This document shows, piece by piece, positions 10,116-52,656 of a stretch of DNA of 64,000 nucleotides. Origin of the DNA: Acidobacteriota bacterium (GTDB taxonomy: Bacteria; Acidobacteriota; Blastocatellia; RBC074). Position 1 is the stretch's first letter; the number at the start of each line of letters is the position of its first letter. The translations under genes were made by a program, and so were the position numbers. The notes below the pieces were generated by a model. The model was not told where the DNA came from. It ran no database searches and was given only the letters and a program-made list of their open reading frames with translations. The stretch lies in NCBI GenBank assembly GCA_018268995.1, contig JAFDVL010000009.1, positions 987 through 64,986 of the forward strand, written 5' to 3'.

Positions 10116-10153
10116 GAAAGAAATCAGGTGGTGGGTCAACCACGGGAGATAAA

Positions 10154-10227
10154 GGCGGAAGCCCGCCTGTGAAGGAGGGCGCGGAAGCAGTGCGTAATAC
10201 GCCCTCCTTCACAGTCGGGCTTCTGCC
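10154..10227. repeat. Copy 1 (2 stem mismatches) of a hairpin-forming intergenic repeat: GGC(A/G)GAAGCCCG(A/C)CTGTGAAGGAGGGCG - loop - CGCCCTCCTTCACAGTCGGGCTTCTGCC
   Basis: The same ~28-31 bp inverted-repeat arms are seen again at 14500-14573 with a perfect 31-bp stem. The loops differ (19 nt versus 12 nt). This copy lies between the MsrP-like and cytochrome b genes. Confidence 0.75.
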
Positions 10228-10280
10228 TTCATTTCTCTACCTTCAGCCACTACCAGAAATCAAAGGGCAAAGGCAAAAAT

Positions 10281-14425: not shown

Positions 14426-14499
14426 ACAAAACCGGGTGTTTCGAGCGCTATTCTAAACTACGAAGCAAGTCGAGAGAAGGCTGGGAACGGTTTTAGAGA

Positions 14500-14573
14500 G
14501 ACGGCAGAAGCCCGACTGTGAAGGAGGGCGTGGTTTCTGTTACGCCCTCCTTCACAGTCGGGCTTCTGCCGTC
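14500..14573. repeat. Copy 2 (perfect 31-bp stem, 12-nt loop) of the same hairpin repeat family as 10154-10227
   Basis: GACGGCAGAAGCCCGACTGTGAAGGAGGGCG / CGCCCTCCTTCACAGTCGGGCTTCTGCCGTC are exact reverse complements. The element lies in the divergent intergenic region between the CadC-like regulator and the large secreted protein gene. Confidence 0.8.
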
Positions 14574-14784
14574 TGCACGGTTCTTTCTCAAAACACATTA
14601 TTCAGCGACGAATAGACTGAATTATGCTAAGCTGACGCAGTTTTTATAAGCTCCCACAACTTAGCCGGCACGTGCTCGTAACAGAGCAGCAAAAATATTT
14701 CTATCCTCGCCACTTGAATAAAAAGCAAGCGGCACTCCCCCCAGTTGATTTTGTCTGCTTGCGAAATAAAACGAGGAAACTACG

Positions 14785-18321: not shown

Positions 18322-18340
18322 GAACATCGGGGAGGAACAC

Positions 18341-18440
18341 CGTACCGTAGACTGTCCAGTCTGCGGAGTCACAGCGACAATTTCCTTGATCAAAACAGGA
18401 CGTTCTTGGCATCAGCCGCAGACTGGACAGTCTACGGTAC
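18341..18440. terminator. Long bidirectional hairpin between convergent genes: 25-bp perfect stem (CGTACCGTAGACTGTCCAGTCTGCGG / CCGCAGACTGGACAGTCTACGGTAC) with a 49-nt loop
   Basis: Seen directly in the sequence. It sits between the stop of the 14785..18321 gene (18321) and the stop of the minus-strand methyltransferase (18432). Confidence 0.6.
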
Positions 18441-19322
18441 AGCGTCTGCGTTCATCTGACGAATCTGTGGCAAATCCTCTTTCCGCAACAGCATCCAGAA
18501 CAAATCATCTGCCAGATAGGGCAACGGCAAATATTCCGGCAGCAAATTCAAGAGCCTCCCTGCCTGGTTTCCTAGCGGTATTCCTTCCAGCTTGTATTGC
18601 AACAATGATTTTGCGTGACCGCCGTTGATCCATTTTGAGGGTCTGCCGCATGCGACTTCTCGAAATCCATATTGTGCAGCCAGTGACTTCAGCGTCGTCG
18701 GCGAAAACCAATGCAACACGCTTGGCGGGCTGTATTCATGCCAGTTCTGGCCAAAGAATCGTGCCGCAAGGCTATCTTTGTTCCAGGTTTCGATGAGCCA
18801 ATATCCTGAAGGTTTTGTCGCATCACAGGCCACTTGCAAGGCGCGTCGCAAATCGGCGAAATGGGCGACGACTTGAATCATGCTGACGAGGTCATATGGT
18901 TCAGTGGTCTGTAAGTTTTCCAATGCGCCTGCCTGCACCGGAATCCCCAGCGTTTCACGCGCATACGACGCCATCTTCGGATTTGGCTCAATGCCGTGCC
19001 CCTGCCATCCACAATCCATAAAGCCCTGGAGCACGAAGCCGGCTGCTGCGCCTACGTCCAGCATCGTTCCCGCTGACAGATAATTCGCTAATCGCTTGCC
19101 GTACCATCGTCCGTGATTGCGCAGGATGCGCGCTTCGCCCAGGTAATCCGGGTAACCCGCGCCGCCACCCTGAAAATATTGGTCATCGTACACTTGTTGC
19201 GTGTGTGTCGCGTCAACTGAAACATCGGCGAAGCGATGGTGACAAGCTGAGCAATCGCGGATTCCATAGCCGTGAGCTGTAAATGTCACCTGACTAGATT
19301 GATTGCAAATCGGACAAAGCAT
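18432..19322 (-). CDS. Class I SAM-dependent methyltransferase with N-terminal Cys4 zinc-ribbon (last gene of the glycosylation operon)
   Basis: Zinc ribbon CPICNQ…CSACHH. Methyltransferase motif I (MLDVGAAAGFVLQGF) and post-I acidic motif. The start lies 3 bp after the stop of the upstream GT-C gene. Confidence 0.75.
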   Translation of the reverse strand: MLCPICNQSSQVTFTAHGYGIRDCSACHHRFADVSVDATHTQQVYDDQYFQGGGAGYPDYLGEARILRNHGRWYGKRLANYLSAGTMLDVGAAAGFVLQGFMDCGWQGHGIEPNPKMASYARETLGIPVQAGALENLQTTEPYDLVSMIQVVAHFADLRRALQVACDATKPSGYWLIETWNKDSLAARFFGQNWHEYSPPSVLHWFSPTTLKSLAAQYGFREVACGRPSKWINGGHAKSLLQYKLEGIPLGNQAGRLLNLLPEYLPLPYLADDLFWMLLRKEDLPQIRQMNADAVP

Positions 19323-37040: not shown

Positions 37041-37844
37041 GTGTCAAACAGACAATTTATGTCCCTATTAACGGAACCTTTTCAAAAGCATCAACAATCT
37101 GTGCGCATTCCCCTCTGGCGCGAGGCGGCCCTGATTCGGGAATGGGTGCAACTCTGGGCCGCTCCCGTATTTTACGGCAAAGGGATTCCATTTGGGAAAG
37201 CTCAGGCCGTAATTACGATCCCCGGCTTTATGTGTCGTGATGTGTATACCAATTGTCTGACGAAATGGCTGGCTCGCATTGGCTATCGCGCTTATCCGTC
37301 GGGATTGGAACGAAACAATGACTGCATTGAAAGATCGCTTGACCGCCTGCTGCAAACAATTGAAACCGCTGCGACTGAAACGAATGGGAAAGTGCATTTG
37401 ATCGGGCATAGTTTAGGCGGATTGTTGGCGCGGATTGCCACCGCGCGACGGCCTGAATTCGTCGCCTCTGTCATTACACTTGGCTCGCCCTTTCGCGGCA
37501 TTCGCGCCCATTCGTATGTTCTTTGGCTCAGTCGGCGTGTGCGTCAGCGTGTGCAATCCGCCGACGTGCCGCATTGCTTTACAGGGTATTGTGACTGTGC
37601 TTCGATCCTGGCATTGCAAAAGCCCTGGCCGCAACAAGTGCTGAACACTGCGATTTACACCAGGGCCGATGGTGTTGTGGATTGGCAAATGTGTGTGAAT
37701 GAAGACCCGGCAAGCAATTTTGAAGTGTCAGGAACGCACGTCGGGTTGGTTTTTAATCCTGATGTTTACCGATTAATTGCAGGACAATTGGCTCAAGCGA
37801 ATGGGGCGAGGATTGCGCCGATAAGTCAGTACCGAGACCGGTAG
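37041..37844 (+). CDS. Alpha/beta-hydrolase-fold lipase/esterase-like protein (PGAP1/lipase-class-2-like)
   Basis: Nucleophile elbow HLIGHSLGG, followed by …LGSPFRG…. Confidence 0.6.
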   Translation: MSNRQFMSLLTEPFQKHQQSVRIPLWREAALIREWVQLWAAPVFYGKGIPFGKAQAVITIPGFMCRDVYTNCLTKWLARIGYRAYPSGLERNNDCIERSLDRLLQTIETAATETNGKVHLIGHSLGGLLARIATARRPEFVASVITLGSPFRGIRAHSYVLWLSRRVRQRVQSADVPHCFTGYCDCASILALQKPWPQQVLNTAIYTRADGVVDWQMCVNEDPASNFEVSGTHVGLVFNPDVYRLIAGQLAQANGARIAPISQYRDR

Positions 37845-37845
37845 G

Positions 37846-37888
37846 GAGCGCGACCCTATACTATTGGACGCTCCCTACCGGTCTTGGT
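37846..37888. terminator. Bidirectional terminator hairpin between convergent genes
   Basis: A 15-bp perfect stem (GACCGGTAGGGAGCG / CGCTCCCTACCGGTC) with a 13-nt loop. Confidence 0.7.
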
Positions 37889-37893
37889 ACTGA

Positions 37894-47694: not shown

Positions 47695-48645
47695 ATGAGA
47701 GCCTTATTAATATTGGTGTTAAGCCTGTTTCTGGCAACTATGGTGTATGCCCAGACCTCGCGTCGCGACTCCGCCAGTTCTTATCTCGAACGCGGCAATC
47801 AATGGTTGAAGAAAGGCGAGGTCGAACGCGCAATTGAAGACTTTTCGCTTGCCGTATCTTCCGATCCAACGCTGGATCAAGCCTACTTCAATCGCGGCGT
47901 CGCGCGCGAACGCAAGGGCGATGCTGAAGGGGCGCTGAGTGATTACAACAAGGCGCTGCGACTCAATGCTCGCAATCTTGATGCCTACTTGAGTCGCGGC
48001 ATTCTGTTTACGCAGCGCAAAGAGTACGAAGCGGCGCTCGGCGATTTCGAGGCCGCGAGCGCGATCAATCCCCGCGATCCGCGTGCGTGGATCAATCGCG
48101 GCGCGACGAATCACATGCGACGTGATTTTGCGGCGGCGTTGCAGAATTACACGCAGGCGGTGAATCTTGCGCCCAAAGATGCCAGAGCGTGGGCGGGGCG
48201 GGGCGGCACGCGGTTCTTTTTGGGCGATCTCGCAGGCGCATTGGCCGATTTGCAACAGGCGTTGCGGCTCAATCCACGCTTGGCACTTGCCTATAATCAG
48301 CGCGCGGAAATCTGGCTGCAACAAAGCGCGCCGGACAAGGCGTTGGCAGATGCAGAGAAAGCGATTCAATGCGACCCGACAATTGCTGAAGTGTGGGCCA
48401 CTCGCGGCGAGGCGTGGTTCGCCAAAGGCAAGCTGGAACGCGCTGTGTCAGATTACGACGAGGCATTGAAGCTGAACCCACAGTTTACGCAAGTCTGGTG
48501 CAATCGCGGCATCGTGCAGTTGCAGTTGAAGCAGGACGCAGCAGCGGAACAGGATTTCGCGCGTTGCCGGGAATTGGGCAGCAGCCTTTCGCCGTATGTC
48601 GAGCAGTGGTTGCAAGCGCAACGAAAGAAGCGAGAGGCGAAATAG
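47695..48645 (+). CDS. Secreted TPR-repeat protein
   Basis: Signal peptide MRALLILVLSLFLATMVYA. Eight or more 34-aa TPR repeats (…AYFNRGVARERKGDAEGALSDYNKALRLNARNLDAYLSRGILF…). Confidence 0.85.
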   Translation: MRALLILVLSLFLATMVYAQTSRRDSASSYLERGNQWLKKGEVERAIEDFSLAVSSDPTLDQAYFNRGVARERKGDAEGALSDYNKALRLNARNLDAYLSRGILFTQRKEYEAALGDFEAASAINPRDPRAWINRGATNHMRRDFAAALQNYTQAVNLAPKDARAWAGRGGTRFFLGDLAGALADLQQALRLNPRLALAYNQRAEIWLQQSAPDKALADAEKAIQCDPTIAEVWATRGEAWFAKGKLERAVSDYDEALKLNPQFTQVWCNRGIVQLQLKQDAAAEQDFARCRELGSSLSPYVEQWLQAQRKKREAK

Positions 48646-48661
48646 CGTTTCGTTGGCAAGC

Positions 48662-48921
48662 GTAGCGCAAGCGAGTTGTCCCGGAGGGACAGGGGAAATT
48701 AGCCGGGGGTGGAGTGGTAACGGAACCCCCGGAGCCGCCCACCACAGAGTCGCCAGCCCCAGCGGGGCGCAGGACGAAAACTCGCATGTCGCCCCGCTGG
48801 GGCTGGTTTGCTCCTCCGGCTGCCTCCGGGGGGGGGCGCGTTCGCTTCCCCCGGCTAATGTCCACCGTGCCTCCGGCACAAAGACTTGTGTCGAAACCAA
48901 TGCATGGCTCGCTTGCGCTAC
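48662..48921. repeat. ~260-bp nested palindromic element filling the gap between two convergent stop codons
   Basis: Outer inverted repeat GTAGCGCAAGCGAG (48662-48675) / CTCGCTTGCGCTAC (48908-48921). Next layer ATTAGCCGGGGG (48698-48709) / CCCCCGGCTAAT (48848-48859). Inner 17-bp stem CCAGCCCCAGCGGGGCG (48753-48769) / CGCCCCGCTGGGGCTGG (48790-48806). It also contains a small CCGGGGG/CCCCCGG hairpin and a G9 run. Confidence 0.65.
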
Positions 48922-48923
48922 TG

Positions 48924-51900
48924 TTACCGCGAAGTGATTTCCGCTTCCGTGGCGGCGCGCCAGAAGCATACGTTCCGATCCCAATCCCCGGCGTAGAGCA
49001 GTTTGCCATCGGGCGAAAAGCCAATGGAATTGTCAGCAATCCAGGAATGATTTTCTTTGAAGACCAGCAACTCTTCGCCCGTCGTCACATCCCAGAGCCG
49101 GACGGTATGATCCTGACTGCCCGTGACCAACCGGCGGTTATCCAGTGAGAACGCCAGGGCGGTAACAACTGCCGCGTGGCCTTTGAAAACGAACAACTCG
49201 CGTCCGGTTTGCGTGTCCCACAACCGCGCCGTCCCCTCACGGCTGCCAGTGGCAAACAGACGTTCATCCGCCGATAACGCAAAGGTTTCAATGCCAGCGT
49301 TGCCACAACGATATTCGCGGCGCATCTGGCCCGTTGCCACGTCCCACACGCTGACGACACTGTTCGTGCTGGCGACGTAGAGGCTTGCGCTGTCCGCCGC
49401 GAAGCGCAAACCCACGATGCCGCCGAAGTACACCTTCATTGAGTTGCGTGCTTTGCCGGTGCGCGGCTCCCAGAGTTGCACAGTGTTGTGAATGCTCACG
49501 GCCAGCGTGCCATCCGGCGCAAAGCTGAGCGCCGTCGCGGGGGTTGGCAAGGGAAGGGTGAAGACCTCTTTGCCAGTGGCCGCTTCCCAGACTTTGACTT
49601 CCACGGCATTGCCCGTGGCGTACCATTGGCTGTCGGCGGAAACGGCGACGTGGAAATTCGTAGGGCTGTTTGGCGGCAAAGGCGTGCGGTGGCGCAACGT
49701 CGTGATTTCCTGTCGCGTCGCCATATCCCATACCGTTACGGATTGCTCTTTCTGCCCCGTCAACAACCGCTTGCCATCCGGGGTCAACACGATGTGCGCA
49801 AAGGCTCTCATCTTTCTCGGATCGTACAGCGAATCGTCGGCGCGCTCACGTGTCAAATCCCAGAGCTTGACGGTGTGATCTGCCGCGCCGGACGCGAGCC
49901 GTTGACCGTCGGGCGAAACAGCCAGCGCGAAAATCACATTGCCGTGCCCGCGCTGCACCGCTTTGTCTTTCCAGGTTGTGGTGTCTAAAAACGTGATTTC
50001 GGATTGCTTTGCTGCGTCCTCTCCACCGATGATCAGCGTGCGGCTGTCGGGTGTGAAGGCCAGCCGACGGCCTCTGTTTTCGAGCTGCATAAGCTGTTTG
50101 CCTGTTGCCGCTTCCCACGCGGTCGTGAGGCCATTCCCTGACACCACGACGATGCGCCCATCGGGAGAAAACAACGCGTTTTGCGGCTTCGCCCACACGC
50201 CTCCCAGTGCGAACAATTCGGTGCCGGAAGCCAGGTCCCAGAGATAGACGTTGCGTTTATGATCTGCGCTGCCGGTGATGAACCGCTGACCATCCGGCGC
50301 GATGGCAACGGTAAAGATGCGCGGCAGGTCTTTTTTGATGCGATAGATTTCGCGCCCGCTCGGCAACTCCAACAGGCTGATCGAACCATCACTAAACCCA
50401 ACGATCATCTGATTGCCATTGGGAGTGAAAGCAAAACAACTGAGGCCGCCTTGCAGGTCTGCGATCTTGTACAGTTCGGCTCCCGTGGTCAGCGAAACGA
50501 CACGAATGACTTTGTCGCCGAGACGGGCCATCGCCAACACCTTGCGATCCTGCGTCAGCGCCGTGATCCCCGCGCTCACAGCCGGGTATTCATATCGTCG
50601 CAGCACCTCGCCCGTGGCCGCGTCGCGCCAGACGACTTCCGTGCCAAGCGAAGCAGGGCCGACATCGCTTTGTTGCGCTGCTACGGTCAGAAGCTGCGTG
50701 CTGTCGAGGGAAAACGCGGTCAGGTGGATAAGTCCCGGAAGAGCAAACGAACGTTCTTCCTGATGGCTGAGCCTCCACAGGTAATACCACTCAAAGCCGC
50801 GATAATCCGGCGCGTTCGGTTGCGGCAAATAGGGCGTGAGCAGTTCGCGCATCCGTTCGATGTTCGCGTTGTTCCACGCCTGATGTGCCAAGCCCATCCG
50901 CGAAGTATAGAGCAATTGCCGATTCGAGAGTTCCTGTGTTTCGGCACGCTGGCGTTGCGTTTGCGCGACGTTACGTTCTGCTTCTGCGGTGAGTCGTTGC
51001 GTCTCAGCCACAGCGCGTTGTTGATTGGCTTCAGCCCGCGCGGCTTCGGCTTGCCGTCGGCGTTGCTCAGCAGTAGTCAATGCGTTTTCAGCGCGCGTTC
51101 GTTGCGCCTCGACTTCGGCCAACGCTTGTTCGGCCAAGCGGCGTTGCTCATCGGCAACGGCTAAAGCTTGTTCGGCACGAATTCTTTGCGCTTCGGCTTT
51201 GGCCTGTTCGGCGCGTGCGATTTGGGCTTGTCGTGACGTAGCTCCGATGCCGCCGACCAACGACAATAAAATCAAGGCAGCAGCGGCGACGGGAACTTTG
51301 TAGCGGCGTACATATTTCACTGCGCGATAGGCCAATGTGCCTTTACGCGCGAGTGTAGGCAAGCCAGCTAAGTAGCGTTGAATGTCAGTGGAGAATTGCT
51401 CGACTGAAGCGTATCGCTCATTTGGTTCTTTGCGTAGCGCCATCAGGACAATGCTGTCGAGATCACCACGAAGTTGCGACGGAGAGAAGGAGAGAGGGAG
51501 TGACGGAGTGACGGAGCGAGAGGACGGATCACCTTGTCCTGTTGTCGCTCTTTCCCACTGTCCCTCTTTCTCTCCTTCTTGCGCGCTTGGTCGCGTCGGT
51601 TCCTGTTCGCAGATTGCTTTTGCCAATTCGCCGAAGGTGTTGGTGGTGAGTTGATACGGGCTGCGTCCGGTGAGTAATTCATACAACACAACGCCCAACG
51701 AATACACATCGCTAGTGGTCGTGAGCGTTTCGTTGCGCACTTGTTCAGGACTGGCGTAGGCGGGCGTCATTGGAGTTTGGCCTGCCTGCGTTTGGAAAGA
51801 TTGCATCAGGTCGGGTTGCAGCAGTTTGGCGATGCCGAAATCCAATAGCTTTGGCGTGCCATCGGCAGTCACGAGAATGTTTGCAGGCTTCAGGTCGCGG

Positions 51901-52508
51901 TGAATGATAAGGTGTTGATGGGCGTATTGCACTGCCGAACAAACTTGACGGAAAAGCTGCAATCGTTCACGCAGGGAAAGCTGTTGTTGCTGGCAATAGA
52001 CATCAATCGGCACGCCTTCGATGTATTCCATCACAAGGTACGGTTGTCCGCTGTCGGTCGTACCGCCGTCGAGCAGGCGCGCAATGTTGGGATGATTCAG
52101 GCTGGCCAGAATCTGCCGCTCGTGGCGTAGTCGGTGTGCGATGTCAGGATGTTCCGTTTTCAGCAGTTTGATGGCGACCTGTTGCTGATATTGCTCGTCA
52201 GCGCGTTCTGCTAACCAGACTGTCCCCATTCCGCCTTGTGCCAGTTCGCGGAGCAATTGGTAAGCGCCGATGCGCTGTGTCGTGAGAGTCACAGAATCTT
52301 CTAGGGCTTGTTTCGCGGAAATTGGAGCTGCTTGTGATCCCAGAAAACCGTTGGCTTGACGGTGTGCAACGAGCAGGGAAGTTACTTCGCGTTGTAATGA
52401 TTCATCGTCCCGGCAGGCTTGCGCCAGAAATGCGGTTTGCTCCGTTTCAGGCAATTCCAGCATTTCATCAAAGATGCGTTCGATTTCGCGCCAACGATGA
52501 TTTTCCAT
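48924..52508 (-). CDS. Ser/Thr protein kinase (ECF-sigma-associated N-terminal domain + Hanks kinase) - TM - coiled-coil - WD40/beta-propeller repeats (1194 aa)
   Basis: The N-terminal conserved domain (MENHRWREIERIFDEMLELPETEQTAFLAQAC…) is shared with ORF 4947. Kinase motifs (GGMGTVWLA, VAIKLL, HRDLKPANIL, DFGIAKL, …ASPEQ). TM (AALILLSLVGGIGA). A Q/A/E/R-rich coiled coil is followed by many WD40-like repeats (…LWDL…, …VWD…). Confidence 0.85.
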   Translation of the reverse strand: MENHRWREIERIFDEMLELPETEQTAFLAQACRDDESLQREVTSLLVAHRQANGFLGSQAAPISAKQALEDSVTLTTQRIGAYQLLRELAQGGMGTVWLAERADEQYQQQVAIKLLKTEHPDIAHRLRHERQILASLNHPNIARLLDGGTTDSGQPYLVMEYIEGVPIDVYCQQQQLSLRERLQLFRQVCSAVQYAHQHLIIHRDLKPANILVTADGTPKLLDFGIAKLLQPDLMQSFQTQAGQTPMTPAYASPEQVRNETLTTTSDVYSLGVVLYELLTGRSPYQLTTNTFGELAKAICEQEPTRPSAQEGEKEGQWERATTGQGDPSSRSVTPSLPLSFSPSQLRGDLDSIVLMALRKEPNERYASVEQFSTDIQRYLAGLPTLARKGTLAYRAVKYVRRYKVPVAAAALILLSLVGGIGATSRQAQIARAEQAKAEAQRIRAEQALAVADEQRRLAEQALAEVEAQRTRAENALTTAEQRRRQAEAARAEANQQRAVAETQRLTAEAERNVAQTQRQRAETQELSNRQLLYTSRMGLAHQAWNNANIERMRELLTPYLPQPNAPDYRGFEWYYLWRLSHQEERSFALPGLIHLTAFSLDSTQLLTVAAQQSDVGPASLGTEVVWRDAATGEVLRRYEYPAVSAGITALTQDRKVLAMARLGDKVIRVVSLTTGAELYKIADLQGGLSCFAFTPNGNQMIVGFSDGSISLLELPSGREIYRIKKDLPRIFTVAIAPDGQRFITGSADHKRNVYLWDLASGTELFALGGVWAKPQNALFSPDGRIVVVSGNGLTTAWEAATGKQLMQLENRGRRLAFTPDSRTLIIGGEDAAKQSEITFLDTTTWKDKAVQRGHGNVIFALAVSPDGQRLASGAADHTVKLWDLTRERADDSLYDPRKMRAFAHIVLTPDGKRLLTGQKEQSVTVWDMATRQEITTLRHRTPLPPNSPTNFHVAVSADSQWYATGNAVEVKVWEAATGKEVFTLPLPTPATALSFAPDGTLAVSIHNTVQLWEPRTGKARNSMKVYFGGIVGLRFAADSASLYVASTNSVVSVWDVATGQMRREYRCGNAGIETFALSADERLFATGSREGTARLWDTQTGRELFVFKGHAAVVTALAFSLDNRRLVTGSQDHTVRLWDVTTGEELLVFKENHSWIADNSIGFSPDGKLLYAGDWDRNVCFWRAATEAEITSR

Positions 52509-52531: not shown

Positions 52532-52656
52532 CGCGAAGCGCCTGGGAGCGCAGGCATCCTTGCCTGCTTGTATTCGTACGCTGTAATTTTTCTCGTCGCG
52601 AATTTGCTCTCCAAGTCTGAAGTAGGCAGGGATGCCTGCGCTCCCAGGGCTACGCG
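52532..52656. repeat. Long imperfect hairpin (~30-bp stem, ~54-nt loop) between the ECF sigma gene and the downstream WD40 kinase gene
   Basis: Left arm CGCGAAGCGCCTGGGAGCGCAGGCATCCTTGCCTGC (52532-52567). Right arm GTAGGCAGGGATGCCTGCGCTCCCAGGGCTACGCG (52622-52656). The reverse complement matches with 3 mismatches and 1 indel. Confidence 0.6.

What the first reader, a model, noticed from the sequence alone, without database searches (positions are those of the whole stretch)
48662..48921. 260-bp three-layer nested palindrome occupying the whole space between two convergent stop codons
Concentric inverted repeats (14 bp outer, 12 bp middle, 17 bp inner) plus extra mini-hairpins and a G9 homopolymer give this region the look of a folded MITE or a large structured RNA rather than a simple terminator. 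G-runs of this length are also slippage-prone.
Basis: seen in the sequence. Interest (0 to 1): 0.5.

Follow-up and report, generated by a model that had tools for sequence, protein, structure and literature searches.

The report
Gene-less palindromic repeat of Y1 transposase
The 260-bp nested palindrome is one copy of a widespread palindromic repeat whose two arms are inverted copies of the Rfam 'Acido-Lenti-1 RNA' motif; in related genomes the same arms flank a small IS200-like single-strand-DNA transposase gene, so this is most likely a gene-less mobile-element relic, not a purpose-built RNA or terminator.

Summary
Window 48662-48921 holds exact 14-bp outer and 17-bp inner inverted repeats, a 34-nt (85%) middle one and a G9 run, and folds far better than shuffles (z about -9 to -10).

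It is not a one-off. Each arm is a sub-threshold match to Rfam RF01687 (Acido-Lenti-1; 30.8 and 30.0 bits, cutoff 37), and the two arms point away from each other. A genome scan found at least 119 loci in Acidobacteriota, Verrucomicrobiota and Planctomycetota. The same roughly 200-nt doublet recurs there: 78 of 114 adjacent module pairs are in (-,+) orientation.

In 16 of the 119 loci a 148-aa HUH/Y1 transposase gene lies close to a module, usually between the arms. It is Pfam Y1_Tnp and fits subclass 1.2 of Quentin 2018. The same holds for all four Y1 genes picked by protein similarity alone.

Across 30 copies, six local hairpins are kept by compensatory changes (98% paired). The long-range 'nested' pairing is not (88%; the variable pair breaks in 12-13 of 30).

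Copies within one genome reach 99% identity at different loci, and there is no target-site duplication.

Verdict: a non-autonomous REPIN/PATE-like element. The kind is known. The link between Acido-Lenti-1 and subclass-1.2 Y1 genes did not appear in the literature I searched.

The parts
48662..48675 (+). Left terminus, GTAGCGCAAGCGAG. This is the outer inverted repeat and it starts with GTAG.
   Evidence: Exact reverse complement of 48908-48921. The same GTAGCGCAA... terminus lies outside the arms in L011 (both ends), L016 and L070. The flanks show no direct repeat.
48677..48732 (-). Left arm module, read on the - strand. Parts: hairpin hp1' 48703-48710/48725-48732; linker with ATTAGCC 48691-48702; hairpin hp2' 48678-48682/48686-48690.
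   Evidence: Rfam RF01687 Acido-Lenti-1, 30.0 bits, E 5e-5 on the 451-nt region and 0.007 on the whole window; below the gathering score of 37. Both hairpins are kept by compensatory changes in 30 copies.
48753..48769 (+). Left half of the central hairpin. It contains its own mini-hairpin hp0', 48756-48760/48764-48768.
   Evidence: 17-bp exact inverted repeat with 48790-48806. The local mini-hairpin is 98% paired across 30 copies. In gene-bearing relatives this hairpin lies just upstream of the Y1 gene.
48770..48789 (+). Central loop, CAGGACGAAAACTCGCATGT. This is the position where relatives carry the 148-aa Y1 transposase gene.
   Evidence: Gene-bearing copies read ...GGGGCGCAGGAC[leader-ATG...stop]GTCCTGCGCCCC.... 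The window keeps GGGGCGCAGGACGA, then runs into the right hp0. That this is a remnant of the gene leader is inference.
48790..48806 (+). Right half of the central hairpin, with mini-hairpin hp0 48791-48795/48799-48803.
   Evidence: 94% paired locally. It lies just downstream of the Y1 stop codon in relatives.
48826..48880 (+). Right arm module. Parts: hairpin hp1 48826-48832/48848-48854, whose 5' arm and loop hold the G9 run 48828-48836; linker GGCTAATGTCCACC 48853-48866 (its GG is also the last two bases of the hp1 3' arm); hairpin hp2 48867-48871/48875-48879.
   Evidence: Rfam RF01687, 30.8 bits, E 3e-5 on the region and 0.0045 on the window. Covariation. The hp2 stem here (GTGCC/GGCAC) differs from the left one (GTCCC/GGGAC) by a locally compensated pair.
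48881..48907 (+). Right sub-terminal segment, AAGACTTGTGTCGAAACC... It has no partner on the left in this copy.
   Evidence: Conserved next to hp2 in L011, L016, L024, L025, L087, L122, L141 and L143. In those copies a matching segment is present on both sides, so the window copy appears to have lost about 34-45 nt from its left arm.
48908..48921 (+). Right terminus, CTCGCTTGCGCTAC (outer inverted repeat).
   Evidence: The same ...GCGCTAC end is seen in L011 and L016.

Best explanation
Window 48662-48921 is a non-autonomous palindromic repeat of the REPIN / BIME / PATE type. It is the gene-less form of a REPtron-like unit.

The full form of the unit carries a roughly 148-aa HUH/Y1 single-strand-DNA transposase. 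That protein is IS200-like and fits subclass 1.2 of Quentin et al. 2018.

Each arm carries three small hairpins. hp0 lies next to where the gene would sit. hp1 and hp2 are joined by the conserved linker GGCTAAT. Together, hp1 + linker + hp2 is what Rfam calls the Acido-Lenti-1 RNA motif. This subfamily has extra outer layers that end in GTAG.

Because the two arms are inverted copies of each other, the sequence looks like a three-layer nested palindrome.

Proposed mechanism, inferred from IS608/ISDra2 TnpA and E. coli TnpA-REP biochemistry: a cognate Y1 enzyme encoded elsewhere in the genome binds the hairpins when the DNA is single-stranded, for example on the lagging-strand template. It cuts and rejoins at short sequences next to the hairpin feet through a phosphotyrosine intermediate, and so copies or moves the doublet without a target-site duplication.

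The window copy has no transposase gene and has lost part of its left arm, so it may be an immobile relic. Whatever it does for the two convergent genes (blocking read-through, protecting 3' ends) would be a side effect of its hairpins. That has not been shown.
For: SHOWN

1. Both arms match RF01687 on opposite strands, pointing away from each other.

My own estimate of chance hits for 18 fixed bases in 596 Gb is about 17. In those loci 78 of 114 adjacent module pairs are (-,+), mostly with 120-200 nt between them. blastn aligns most of them to window 48676-48881 over 200-250 nt.

3. Rfam's own seed has the same divergent pairs, with 94-107 nt start to start; the window has 94.

4. Sister doublets pass Rfam's gathering score: L109 at 44.8 and 40.4 bits, and L041, L075 and L007 at 50-61 bits. 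So do the modules on both sides of the Y1 gene in L050.

5. Long versions (L003, L019, L116, L103, L008, L050) hold a roughly 148-aa ORF between the arms; in L003, L019 and L116 it lies exactly between the two hp0 mini-hairpins. The ORF scores 80-96 bits on Pfam Y1_Tnp and 71 bits on NCBIfam IS200/IS605 transposase, cutoff 55. Its closest solved structures are the ISDra2 and IS608 TnpA proteins. The gene is present in 16 of 119 module loci.

6. Reverse test: four Y1 genes chosen by protein similarity alone all carry the arms, in four unrelated gene neighbourhoods.

7. Across 30 doublets the six local hairpins are 98.1% paired, and 18 of 35 pairs show changes on both sides.

8. Copies within one genome at different loci reach 99% identity (L025 / L087). 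Median identity is 0.73 within genomes and 0.62 between genomes.

9. No target-site duplication flanks the termini.

10. One copy has been split by an IS3-like insertion.

INFERRED: the cutting and joining chemistry, and mobilisation in trans.
Against: - No other copy and no Y1 gene lies in the 64-kb window. The rest of the source genome could not be searched.
- Both arms score below Rfam's cutoff.
- The Y1 protein belongs to class 1 (IS200-like), not to the class 2 RAYTs that drive known REPINs. NCBIfam's REP transposase model gives only 20.5 bits against a cutoff of 80. Quentin et al. 2018 list subclass 1.2 as having no REP.
- No empty orthologous site was found, so insertion at this locus is not demonstrated.
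- No enzyme of subclass 1.2 has been shown to bind or cut such hairpins.
Confidence: 0.8

Rival explanations
1. Two divergently oriented small-RNA genes. Each arm would be transcribed as a free-standing Acido-Lenti-1 sRNA that acts in trans, as Rfam files the motif.
For: Rfam RF01687 is typed 'Gene; sRNA', and Weinberg 2010 reported covariation. The local hairpins are indeed kept by compensatory changes.
Against: - Hairpin covariation is equally expected for hairpins read as single-stranded DNA by HUH/Y1 enzymes.
- No sigma-70-like promoter or terminator lies in or next to the modules.
- The modules come as inverted doublets that flank a transposase gene.
- They are multi-copy, with near-identical copies within a genome.
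- They lie in all orientations relative to neighbouring ORFs (a crude analysis).
- Weinberg 2010 gave no function for the motif, and a 2026 preprint still says little is known of its function.
Confidence: 0.08
2. The outer 14-bp stem is a separate GTAG-tagged REP-like hairpin, and the Acido-Lenti-1 doublet inserted into it. The layers would then be nested independent elements rather than one unit.
For: - In L011 the left end, GTAG-CGCAACCT-GCCG-AGGTTGCG, is a complete hairpin on its own.
- Outer layers differ between subfamilies...CTGCGTAACATCAGTTA in L006, L015, L034, L100, L108 and L112...CCCCGTACTGTACC in L025 and L087.
- The outer layer of L122 resembles a different palindrome in the window, at 18337-18445.
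- These genomes hold several palindromic repeat families.
Against: The same order, GTAGCGCAA - AAGACTTGTGT segment - hp2, recurs at six element ends in four loci of three genomes (window, L011 both ends, L016, L070). GTAGCGCAAGCGAG occurs nowhere else in the window.
Confidence: 0.1
3. A bidirectional transcription terminator or mRNA 3'-end stabiliser that evolved in place for the two convergent genes.
For: It fills the whole gap between two convergent stop codons and folds very stably on both strands.
Against: - No T-run follows the stems on either strand, and the scan found no terminator-like site.
- Homologous copies lie at unrelated loci in many genomes. A crude ORF analysis found no preference for gene 3' ends: 42 element sides face a 3' end and 40 face a 5' end.
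- The origin of the family is tied to a transposase gene.
- A secondary role after insertion is not excluded.
Confidence: 0.04
4. A classical MITE: a deletion derivative of a DDE-transposase insertion sequence, mobilised through its terminal inverted repeats.
For: 14-bp exact terminal inverted repeats, small size, no coding capacity, many copies in related genomes.
Against: - No target-site duplication.
- Every gene-bearing relative encodes a Y1/HUH enzyme, not a DDE enzyme. The single DDE (IS3-like) gene seen, in L074, interrupts an element rather than belonging to it.
- The conserved features are local hairpins, not the termini.
Confidence: 0.03

Closest known systems
REPIN / BIME with its RAYT (TnpA-REP) in a REPtron (Nunvar 2010; Bertels & Rainey 2011, PMC3116915; Ton-Hoang 2012; Quentin 2018, PMC6006769)
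   Same: - Two inverted hairpin-forming repeats make a doublet.
- The doublets are extragenic and multi-copy.
- The same repeats flank a low-copy HUH/Y1 gene.
- There is no target-site duplication.
- In this subfamily the termini start with GTAG, the tag of canonical REPs.
   Different: - The enzyme is class 1, subclass 1.2 (DHVH, WQ, YIxxQxxHH; about 148 aa), not a class 2 RAYT (Y...NP). It fails NCBIfam's REP transposase model.
- Each arm is a roughly 100-nt compound of three hairpins, not one 20-40-bp REP.
- The Y1 gene sits in different neighbourhoods in different genomes, which looks more like an IS.
Rfam RF01687, the Acido-Lenti-1 RNA motif (Weinberg 2010, PMC2864571)
   Same: - Two hairpins joined by the GGCUAAU...CGU linker.
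- Same spacing.
- The same divergent pairs about 94 nt apart occur in the seed alignment.
- Taxa overlap.
- Sister copies pass the gathering score.
   Different: - The window arms score 30.8 and 30.0 bits against a cutoff of 37, because hp1 has a loop of about 14 nt where the model has 4-6 nt.
- Rfam treats the motif as an sRNA gene. Here it behaves as the arm of a DNA repeat tied to a transposase.
IS200/IS605 insertion sequences and their gene-less PATE derivatives (the PATE label is from my own knowledge: Dyall-Smith 2011)
   Same: - The transposase is most similar to IS200-type TnpA by Pfam, NCBIfam and PDB comparison.
- Sub-terminal hairpins.
- No target-site duplication.
- Gene-less derivatives exist.
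   Different: - IS200/IS605 ends are asymmetric (different left and right hairpins on one strand) and are not inverted repeats. Here the arms are inverted copies.
- No tnpB gene.
- The tnpA-bearing form shows no sign of high copy number.
TIRtron / TIRYT (Di Nocera 2013, PMC3733652)
   Same: Y1 genes are flanked by long inverted repeats, some of them self-complementary. Gene-less dimers and clusters are dispersed in the genome. An acidobacterial group is included.
   Different: According to Quentin 2018, TIRYT proteins are mostly subclass 2.1: about 238 aa, with a C-terminal HTH domain and a GGGGWSAS motif in the repeats. None of these features is seen here.

Membership tests
Rfam RF01687 Acido-Lenti-1 | Covariance-model score at or above the gathering score (37 bits) | tested here: not met
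   48826-48880 (+) scores 30.8 bits and 48677-48732 (-) scores 30.0 bits. Nothing in the window reaches the gathering threshold.
Rfam RF01687 Acido-Lenti-1 | Hairpin 1, conserved GGCUA linker of fixed length, 5-bp hairpin 2 with a 3-nt loop | tested here: met
   Both arms align to the full model, positions 1-46; only the hp1 loop is longer. The stems covary across 30 copies.
Rfam RF01687 Acido-Lenti-1 | Homology to accepted members | tested here: met
   The L109 doublet aligns to the window element at 67% over 220 nt, and both of its arms pass the gathering score. L041, L075, L007 and L050 also pass.
REPIN / REPtron (RAYT-associated) | Two hairpin-forming repeats in inverted orientation, separated by a short spacer | tested here: met
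   The (-,+) orientation holds for 78 of 114 adjacent module pairs.
REPIN / REPtron (RAYT-associated) | Many copies within the same genome | not testable with these tools
   Only 64 kb of the source genome is available, and it holds one copy. Related MAGs have 2-6 hit loci each even though the scan was cut short.
REPIN / REPtron (RAYT-associated) | A Y1 gene flanked by the same repeats | tested here: met
   Met in relatives: the Y1 gene is present in 16 of 119 module loci, and all 4 Y1 genes chosen by protein alone carry the arms. In MAG CAVUPU the arms around the Y1 gene (L116) match the gene-less doublets L025 and L087. Not testable for the source genome.
REPIN / REPtron (RAYT-associated) | The transposase is a class 2 RAYT (Y...NP motif; matches the REP transposase model) | tested here: not met
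   The motifs are DHVH / WQ / YIxxQxxHH, which fit subclass 1.2. NF047646 gives 20.5 bits against a cutoff of 80. The E. coli RAYT structure is not among the PDB hits.
IS200/IS605 and gene-less derivatives | HUH/Y1 TnpA | tested here: met
   Met in relatives: PF01797 at 80-96 bits, NF033573 at 71 bits against a cutoff of 55. HUH and Tyr align to ISDra2 TnpA.
IS200/IS605 and gene-less derivatives | Asymmetric left and right ends without terminal inverted repeats | tested here: not met
   The arms are inverted copies of one another.
IS200/IS605 and gene-less derivatives | No target-site duplication | tested here: met
   Window flanks read ...CAAGC | element | TGTTA... L011 flanks read ...AAAAA | element | TCCTG....
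Classical DDE-type MITE | Terminal inverted repeats plus a target-site duplication, and a related DDE-transposase parent | tested here: not met
   Terminal inverted repeats are present, but there is no duplication and the parent gene is Y1.
Intrinsic terminator | G+C-rich hairpin followed by a T-run | tested here: not met
   No terminator-like site on either strand in 48300-49300.

The most novel reading that the evidence does not exclude
The Acido-Lenti-1 'RNA' motif (RF01687) has been an orphan sRNA candidate since 2010. On this reading it is really the hairpin-bearing arm of a REPtron/REPIN-like system run by subclass-1.2 Y1 (IS200-like) transposases. Quentin et al. 2018 described that subclass as having no associated repeats. 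The system would then span Acidobacteriota, Verrucomicrobiota and Planctomycetota, and probably Lentisphaerae and Bacteroidota too. It would use compound three-hairpin arms, intermediate between IS200 ends and REPs.
Probability: 0.6. Interest if true: 0.5.

Novelty: new member of a known kind. Interest (0 to 1): 0.4.

Why it matters
For this window it settles the matter. The palindrome is a repeat-element copy, not a locus-specific regulator, and the G9 run is incidental.

More broadly, the result gives a testable identity to an Rfam family with no known function. It also assigns a candidate DNA substrate to a subclass of Y1/HUH enzymes that had none.

That in turn offers a possible evolutionary intermediate between IS200 insertion sequences and domesticated REP/RAYT systems.

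There is a practical point for annotation. Gene callers place spurious ORFs across these elements; a 173-aa 'gene' is called over this one in L001. RNA annotators label them as ncRNAs.

Tried and rejected
- **Rfam at gathering threshold, whole window:** nothing.
- **Other copies of each layer in the window:** none.
- **Empty-site test:** the kinase has no exact record. The TPR protein is found only on two contigs whose spacer is 100% identical to the window's. Its homologue search returned only generic TPR proteins at 58% identity or less, and no orthologue. Presence/absence at this locus therefore stays untested.
- **Metagenome scan with CGGCACAAAGACTTGTGT:** 28 hits, only about 6 of them real elements; the rest were unrelated coding sequence.
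- **Gene-context analysis with raw ORFs:** too noisy in G+C-rich DNA. 18 of 52 elements were 'spanned' by spurious ORFs. It showed no preference for 3' ends.
- **Viral contigs:** 2 hits only, so no sign of a phage link.
- **Rejected:** G-run phase variation, intrinsic terminator, class 3 Y1 (motifs do not fit) and TIRYT.

Full report
**1. Observation**

- A 14-bp exact outer inverted repeat, GTAGCGCAAGCGAG at 48662-48675, with its complement at 48908-48921.
- A 12-bp exact core, ATTAGCCGGGGG at 48698-48709 / 48848-48859, inside a 34-nt, 85% inverted repeat.
- A 17-bp exact inner inverted repeat at 48753-48769 / 48790-48806.
- Two mini-hairpins.
- A G9 run at 48828-48836.

The element begins 16 nt after the stop codon of a TPR gene (47695-48645, + strand). 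It ends 2 nt before the stop codon of a Ser/Thr-kinase-WD40 gene (48924-52508, - strand).

Either strand folds far better than shuffled sequence. The z-scores are -9.0 and -9.6 as RNA and -10.3 as DNA. The one qualification is that the right arm has a 27-nt segment (48881-48907) with no partner on the left.

**2. First lead**

Rfam at gathering thresholds finds nothing in the window. A permissive scan gives two near-equal hits to one family, RF01687 Acido-Lenti-1.
- 48826-48880 on the + strand: 30.8 bits.
- 48677-48732 on the - strand: 30.0 bits.

The cutoff is 37 bits. The E-values are 3e-5 and 5e-5 for the region, and 0.0045 and 0.007 for the whole window.

The 'middle layer' of the palindrome is therefore two copies of one 46-nt, two-hairpin module pointing away from each other. 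The Weinberg 2010 seed alignment holds 89 sequences, many of them clustered. It includes the same divergent pairs with 94-107 nt between starts; the window has 94. The paper gives no function, beyond noting that some copies lie near group II introns.

**3. Relatives**

I scanned one genome per species with a pattern taken from the arm, GGCTAATN7GTNCCTCCGGNAC. They belong to Acidobacteriota (many Blastocatellia), Verrucomicrobiota and Planctomycetota, with a few others.

A tolerant rescan found 253 modules. Of 114 adjacent pairs, 78 are (-,+), mostly 120-200 nt apart. Only 11 are (+,-), 8 are (+,+) and 17 are (-,-).

blastn aligns most loci to window 48676-48881 over 200-250 nt. The best is L011, a Blastocatellia MAG, at 73% over 257 nt.

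The shared plan is: hp2' - ATTAGCC - hp1' - spacer - central hairpin - spacer - hp1 - GGCTAAT - hp2. Each half of the central hairpin is itself a mini-hairpin, hp0.

In the window's subfamily the similarity continues outward. It runs through AAGACTTGTGTCGAAACC to a terminus ...GCGCTAC, seen at both ends of L011 and at one end each of L016 and L070.

Sister copies have a matching sub-terminal segment on both sides. The window copy lacks about 34-45 nt on the left.

**4. The gene**

Seven (-,+) pairs are 540-1430 nt apart. Six of them (L003, L019, L116, L103, L008, L050) hold a roughly 148-aa ORF between the arms. In L003, L019 and L116 it lies exactly between the two hp0 mini-hairpins. The seventh, L074, is an element split by an IS3-like insertion.

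The ORF is an HUH/Y1 transposase.
- Pfam PF01797: 80-96 bits.
- NCBIfam IS200/IS605 transposase: 71 bits against a cutoff of 55.
- NCBIfam REP-associated tyrosine transposase: only 20.5 bits against a cutoff of 80.

The closest solved structures are ISDra2 and IS608 TnpA, with the HUH and Tyr residues aligned. The E. coli RAYT structure is not among the hits.

The motifs DHVH, WQ and YIxxQxxHH and the length fit subclass 1.2 of Quentin et al. 2018. That paper lists subclass 1.2 as low-copy, lacking IS200 ends, found mainly in Cyanobacteria and Bacteroidetes, and with 'REP: no'.

tblastn finds this gene in 16 of the 119 module loci. My own estimate for a one-or-two-copy gene in 8-kb blocks is under one. 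The window has none.

As a reverse test I took four homologues chosen only by protein similarity and contig length. All carry the arms 70-80 nt from the gene ends, in four unrelated neighbourhoods. One of these is inside a cas operon.

Modules on both sides of the L050 gene pass Rfam's gathering score, as do both arms of the L109 doublet.

**5. Which structure is conserved**

I compared two structure models on an alignment of 30 doublets.

| Model | Cells paired | Pairs changed on both sides | Covariation score |
|---|---|---|---|
| Six local hairpins | 98.1% | 18 of 35 | 0.274 (shuffles 0.105; 0 of 500 reach it) |
| Long-range nested palindrome | 87.7% | 21 of 49 | 0.202 (shuffles 0.124) |

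The variable hp2 pair is paired in 29-30 of 30 copies locally. In the long-range model it is unpaired in 12-13 of 30.

Among 69 doublets, 36 have different hp2 stems on the two arms, and each stem is still locally paired. The window itself shows this: GTCCC/GGGAC on the left and GTGCC/GGCAC on the right.

The big fold is therefore a by-product of inverted duplication. What is conserved is a set of small hairpins, as expected for sites read on single-stranded nucleic acid.

One caveat applies. The loci were collected with a pattern that fixes some stem positions. The pairs that carry the argument were left free in that pattern.

**6. Signs of mobility**

- Copies within one genome at different loci reach 99% identity. 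L025 and L087 lie on different contigs of one MAG, and their flanks diverge outside the element. Other within-genome pairs reach 94%, 88% and 86%.
- Median identity is 0.73 within genomes and 0.62 between genomes.
- No direct repeat flanks the termini in the window or in L011.
- L085 and L098 share 91% identity, and their flanking sequences are also similar. This suggests, but does not prove, an orthologous site and long persistence.

**7. The window copy**

The window copy is identical, G9 included, in two other assemblies: GCA_044222815.1 and a Logan contig. The G9 belongs to the 5' arm and loop of hp1 and is absent from sister copies. Nothing points to phase variation.

The central loop begins GGGGCGCAGGACGA. 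The same words abut the Y1 leader in gene-bearing copies. This is consistent with loss of the gene from a longer parent, but that remains inference.

**8. Mechanism**

*Shown:* the architecture, the tie to the Y1 gene, the local-hairpin conservation, the multiple copies and the absence of a target-site duplication.

*Inferred from established IS608/ISDra2 and TnpA-REP biochemistry:* a Y1 dimer binds the hairpins on single-stranded DNA. It cleaves beside a hairpin foot through a 5'-phosphotyrosine link. It then moves or copies the segment without a duplication.

The window copy would depend on an enzyme encoded elsewhere. Having lost part of one arm, it may be inert.

*Speculative:* its hairpins may also stop or stabilise transcripts of the two convergent genes. 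There is no T-run or terminator-like site.

**9. Rivals**

- **Free-standing sRNA genes (about 0.08).** Rfam files the motif this way. There is no promoter or terminator, and the doublet and transposase context argues against it.
- **Nested independent elements, with the outer stem being a separate GTAG-tagged hairpin (about 0.1).** This remains possible, because outer layers differ between subfamilies.
- **A terminator evolved in place (about 0.04) and a classical DDE-type MITE (about 0.03).** Both fail their defining tests.

**10. Comparison and novelty**

It works like a REPIN/REPtron. It fails one defining feature of that family, the class 2 RAYT. It also fails one feature of IS200/IS605, the asymmetric ends. 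TIRtrons (Di Nocera 2013) look similar in layout but use subclass 2.1 proteins.

The kind is known, so the window element is a new member of it.

In the searchable literature only five papers mention Acido-Lenti-1. Of the two I read, neither links it to a transposase; a 2026 preprint says little is known of its function. The only description of subclass 1.2 that I found reports no repeats. The link appears to be unreported. I cannot exclude a report in a paper outside the library.

**11. Dead ends**

These are listed under Tried and rejected. The most important is that no orthologous empty site could be found.

Noticed in passing
window 10124-10257 and 14499-14574: Two copies of another palindromic repeat family, with shared core GGCAGAAGCCCGACTGTGAAGGAGGGCG. 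The copy at 14499-14574 is a perfect 33-bp inverted repeat with a 10-nt loop. The two copies are 82-84% identical to each other. They draw spurious weak microRNA-precursor hits in Rfam.
   Followed up: partly
window 18337-18445: 30-nt inverted repeat, 93% complementary, containing CCGTAGACTGTCCAGTCTGCGG. Similar words (CCGTAGTCTGTCCAG / CTGTCCAGTCTGCGG) form the outermost layer around an Acido-Lenti-1 doublet in metagenome locus L122. Different palindromic families in these genomes may nest in or recombine with one another.
   Followed up: partly
window 37826-37893 and 52541-52648: Two further strong intergenic palindromes (25 nt at 96% and 29 nt at 93%). The first has a relative in L059, an Acidobacteriota chromosome. 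The second lies just upstream of the kinase gene and is also present in L001. Function unknown.
   Followed up: partly
L001 10754-11275 (window equivalent about 48448-48969, - strand): The public annotation calls a 173-aa gene with no Pfam hit straight across the palindromic element, overlapping both real genes. It is almost certainly a spurious ORF created by the G+C-rich repeat.
   Followed up: no
L155 / L156 3001-3447: A Y1 subclass-1.2 gene with its hairpin arms sits inside a CRISPR-Cas operon, between GSU0053/GSU0054-type cas genes and cas4-cas1/cas2. The arrangement is identical in two assemblies. Downstream there are tandem 73-nt repeats that each end in a hp2-like hairpin.
   Followed up: no
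Rfam seed of RF01687 (PMC2864571, supplement file 183), e.g. NZ_ABCK01000001.1 416513-416780: In Lentisphaera araneosa, seed copies form same-strand arrays with a regular 74-nt period (46-nt module plus 28-nt spacer). Nested (-,-,+,+) arrangements occur in L041, L075 and L107. The meaning of these arrays was not examined.
   Followed up: no
L074 1123-2606: An Acido-Lenti-1 doublet is interrupted in its centre by an IS3-like element with orfA/orfB-type ORFs. These repeats may, like REPs, serve as landing sites for other insertion sequences.
   Followed up: no
L116 6945-7400: The Y1 gene flanked by arms in MAG CAVUPU is split into two reading frames. It could be a pseudogene or a long-read homopolymer error. 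The same MAG holds the 99%-identical gene-less doublets L025 and L087.
   Followed up: no
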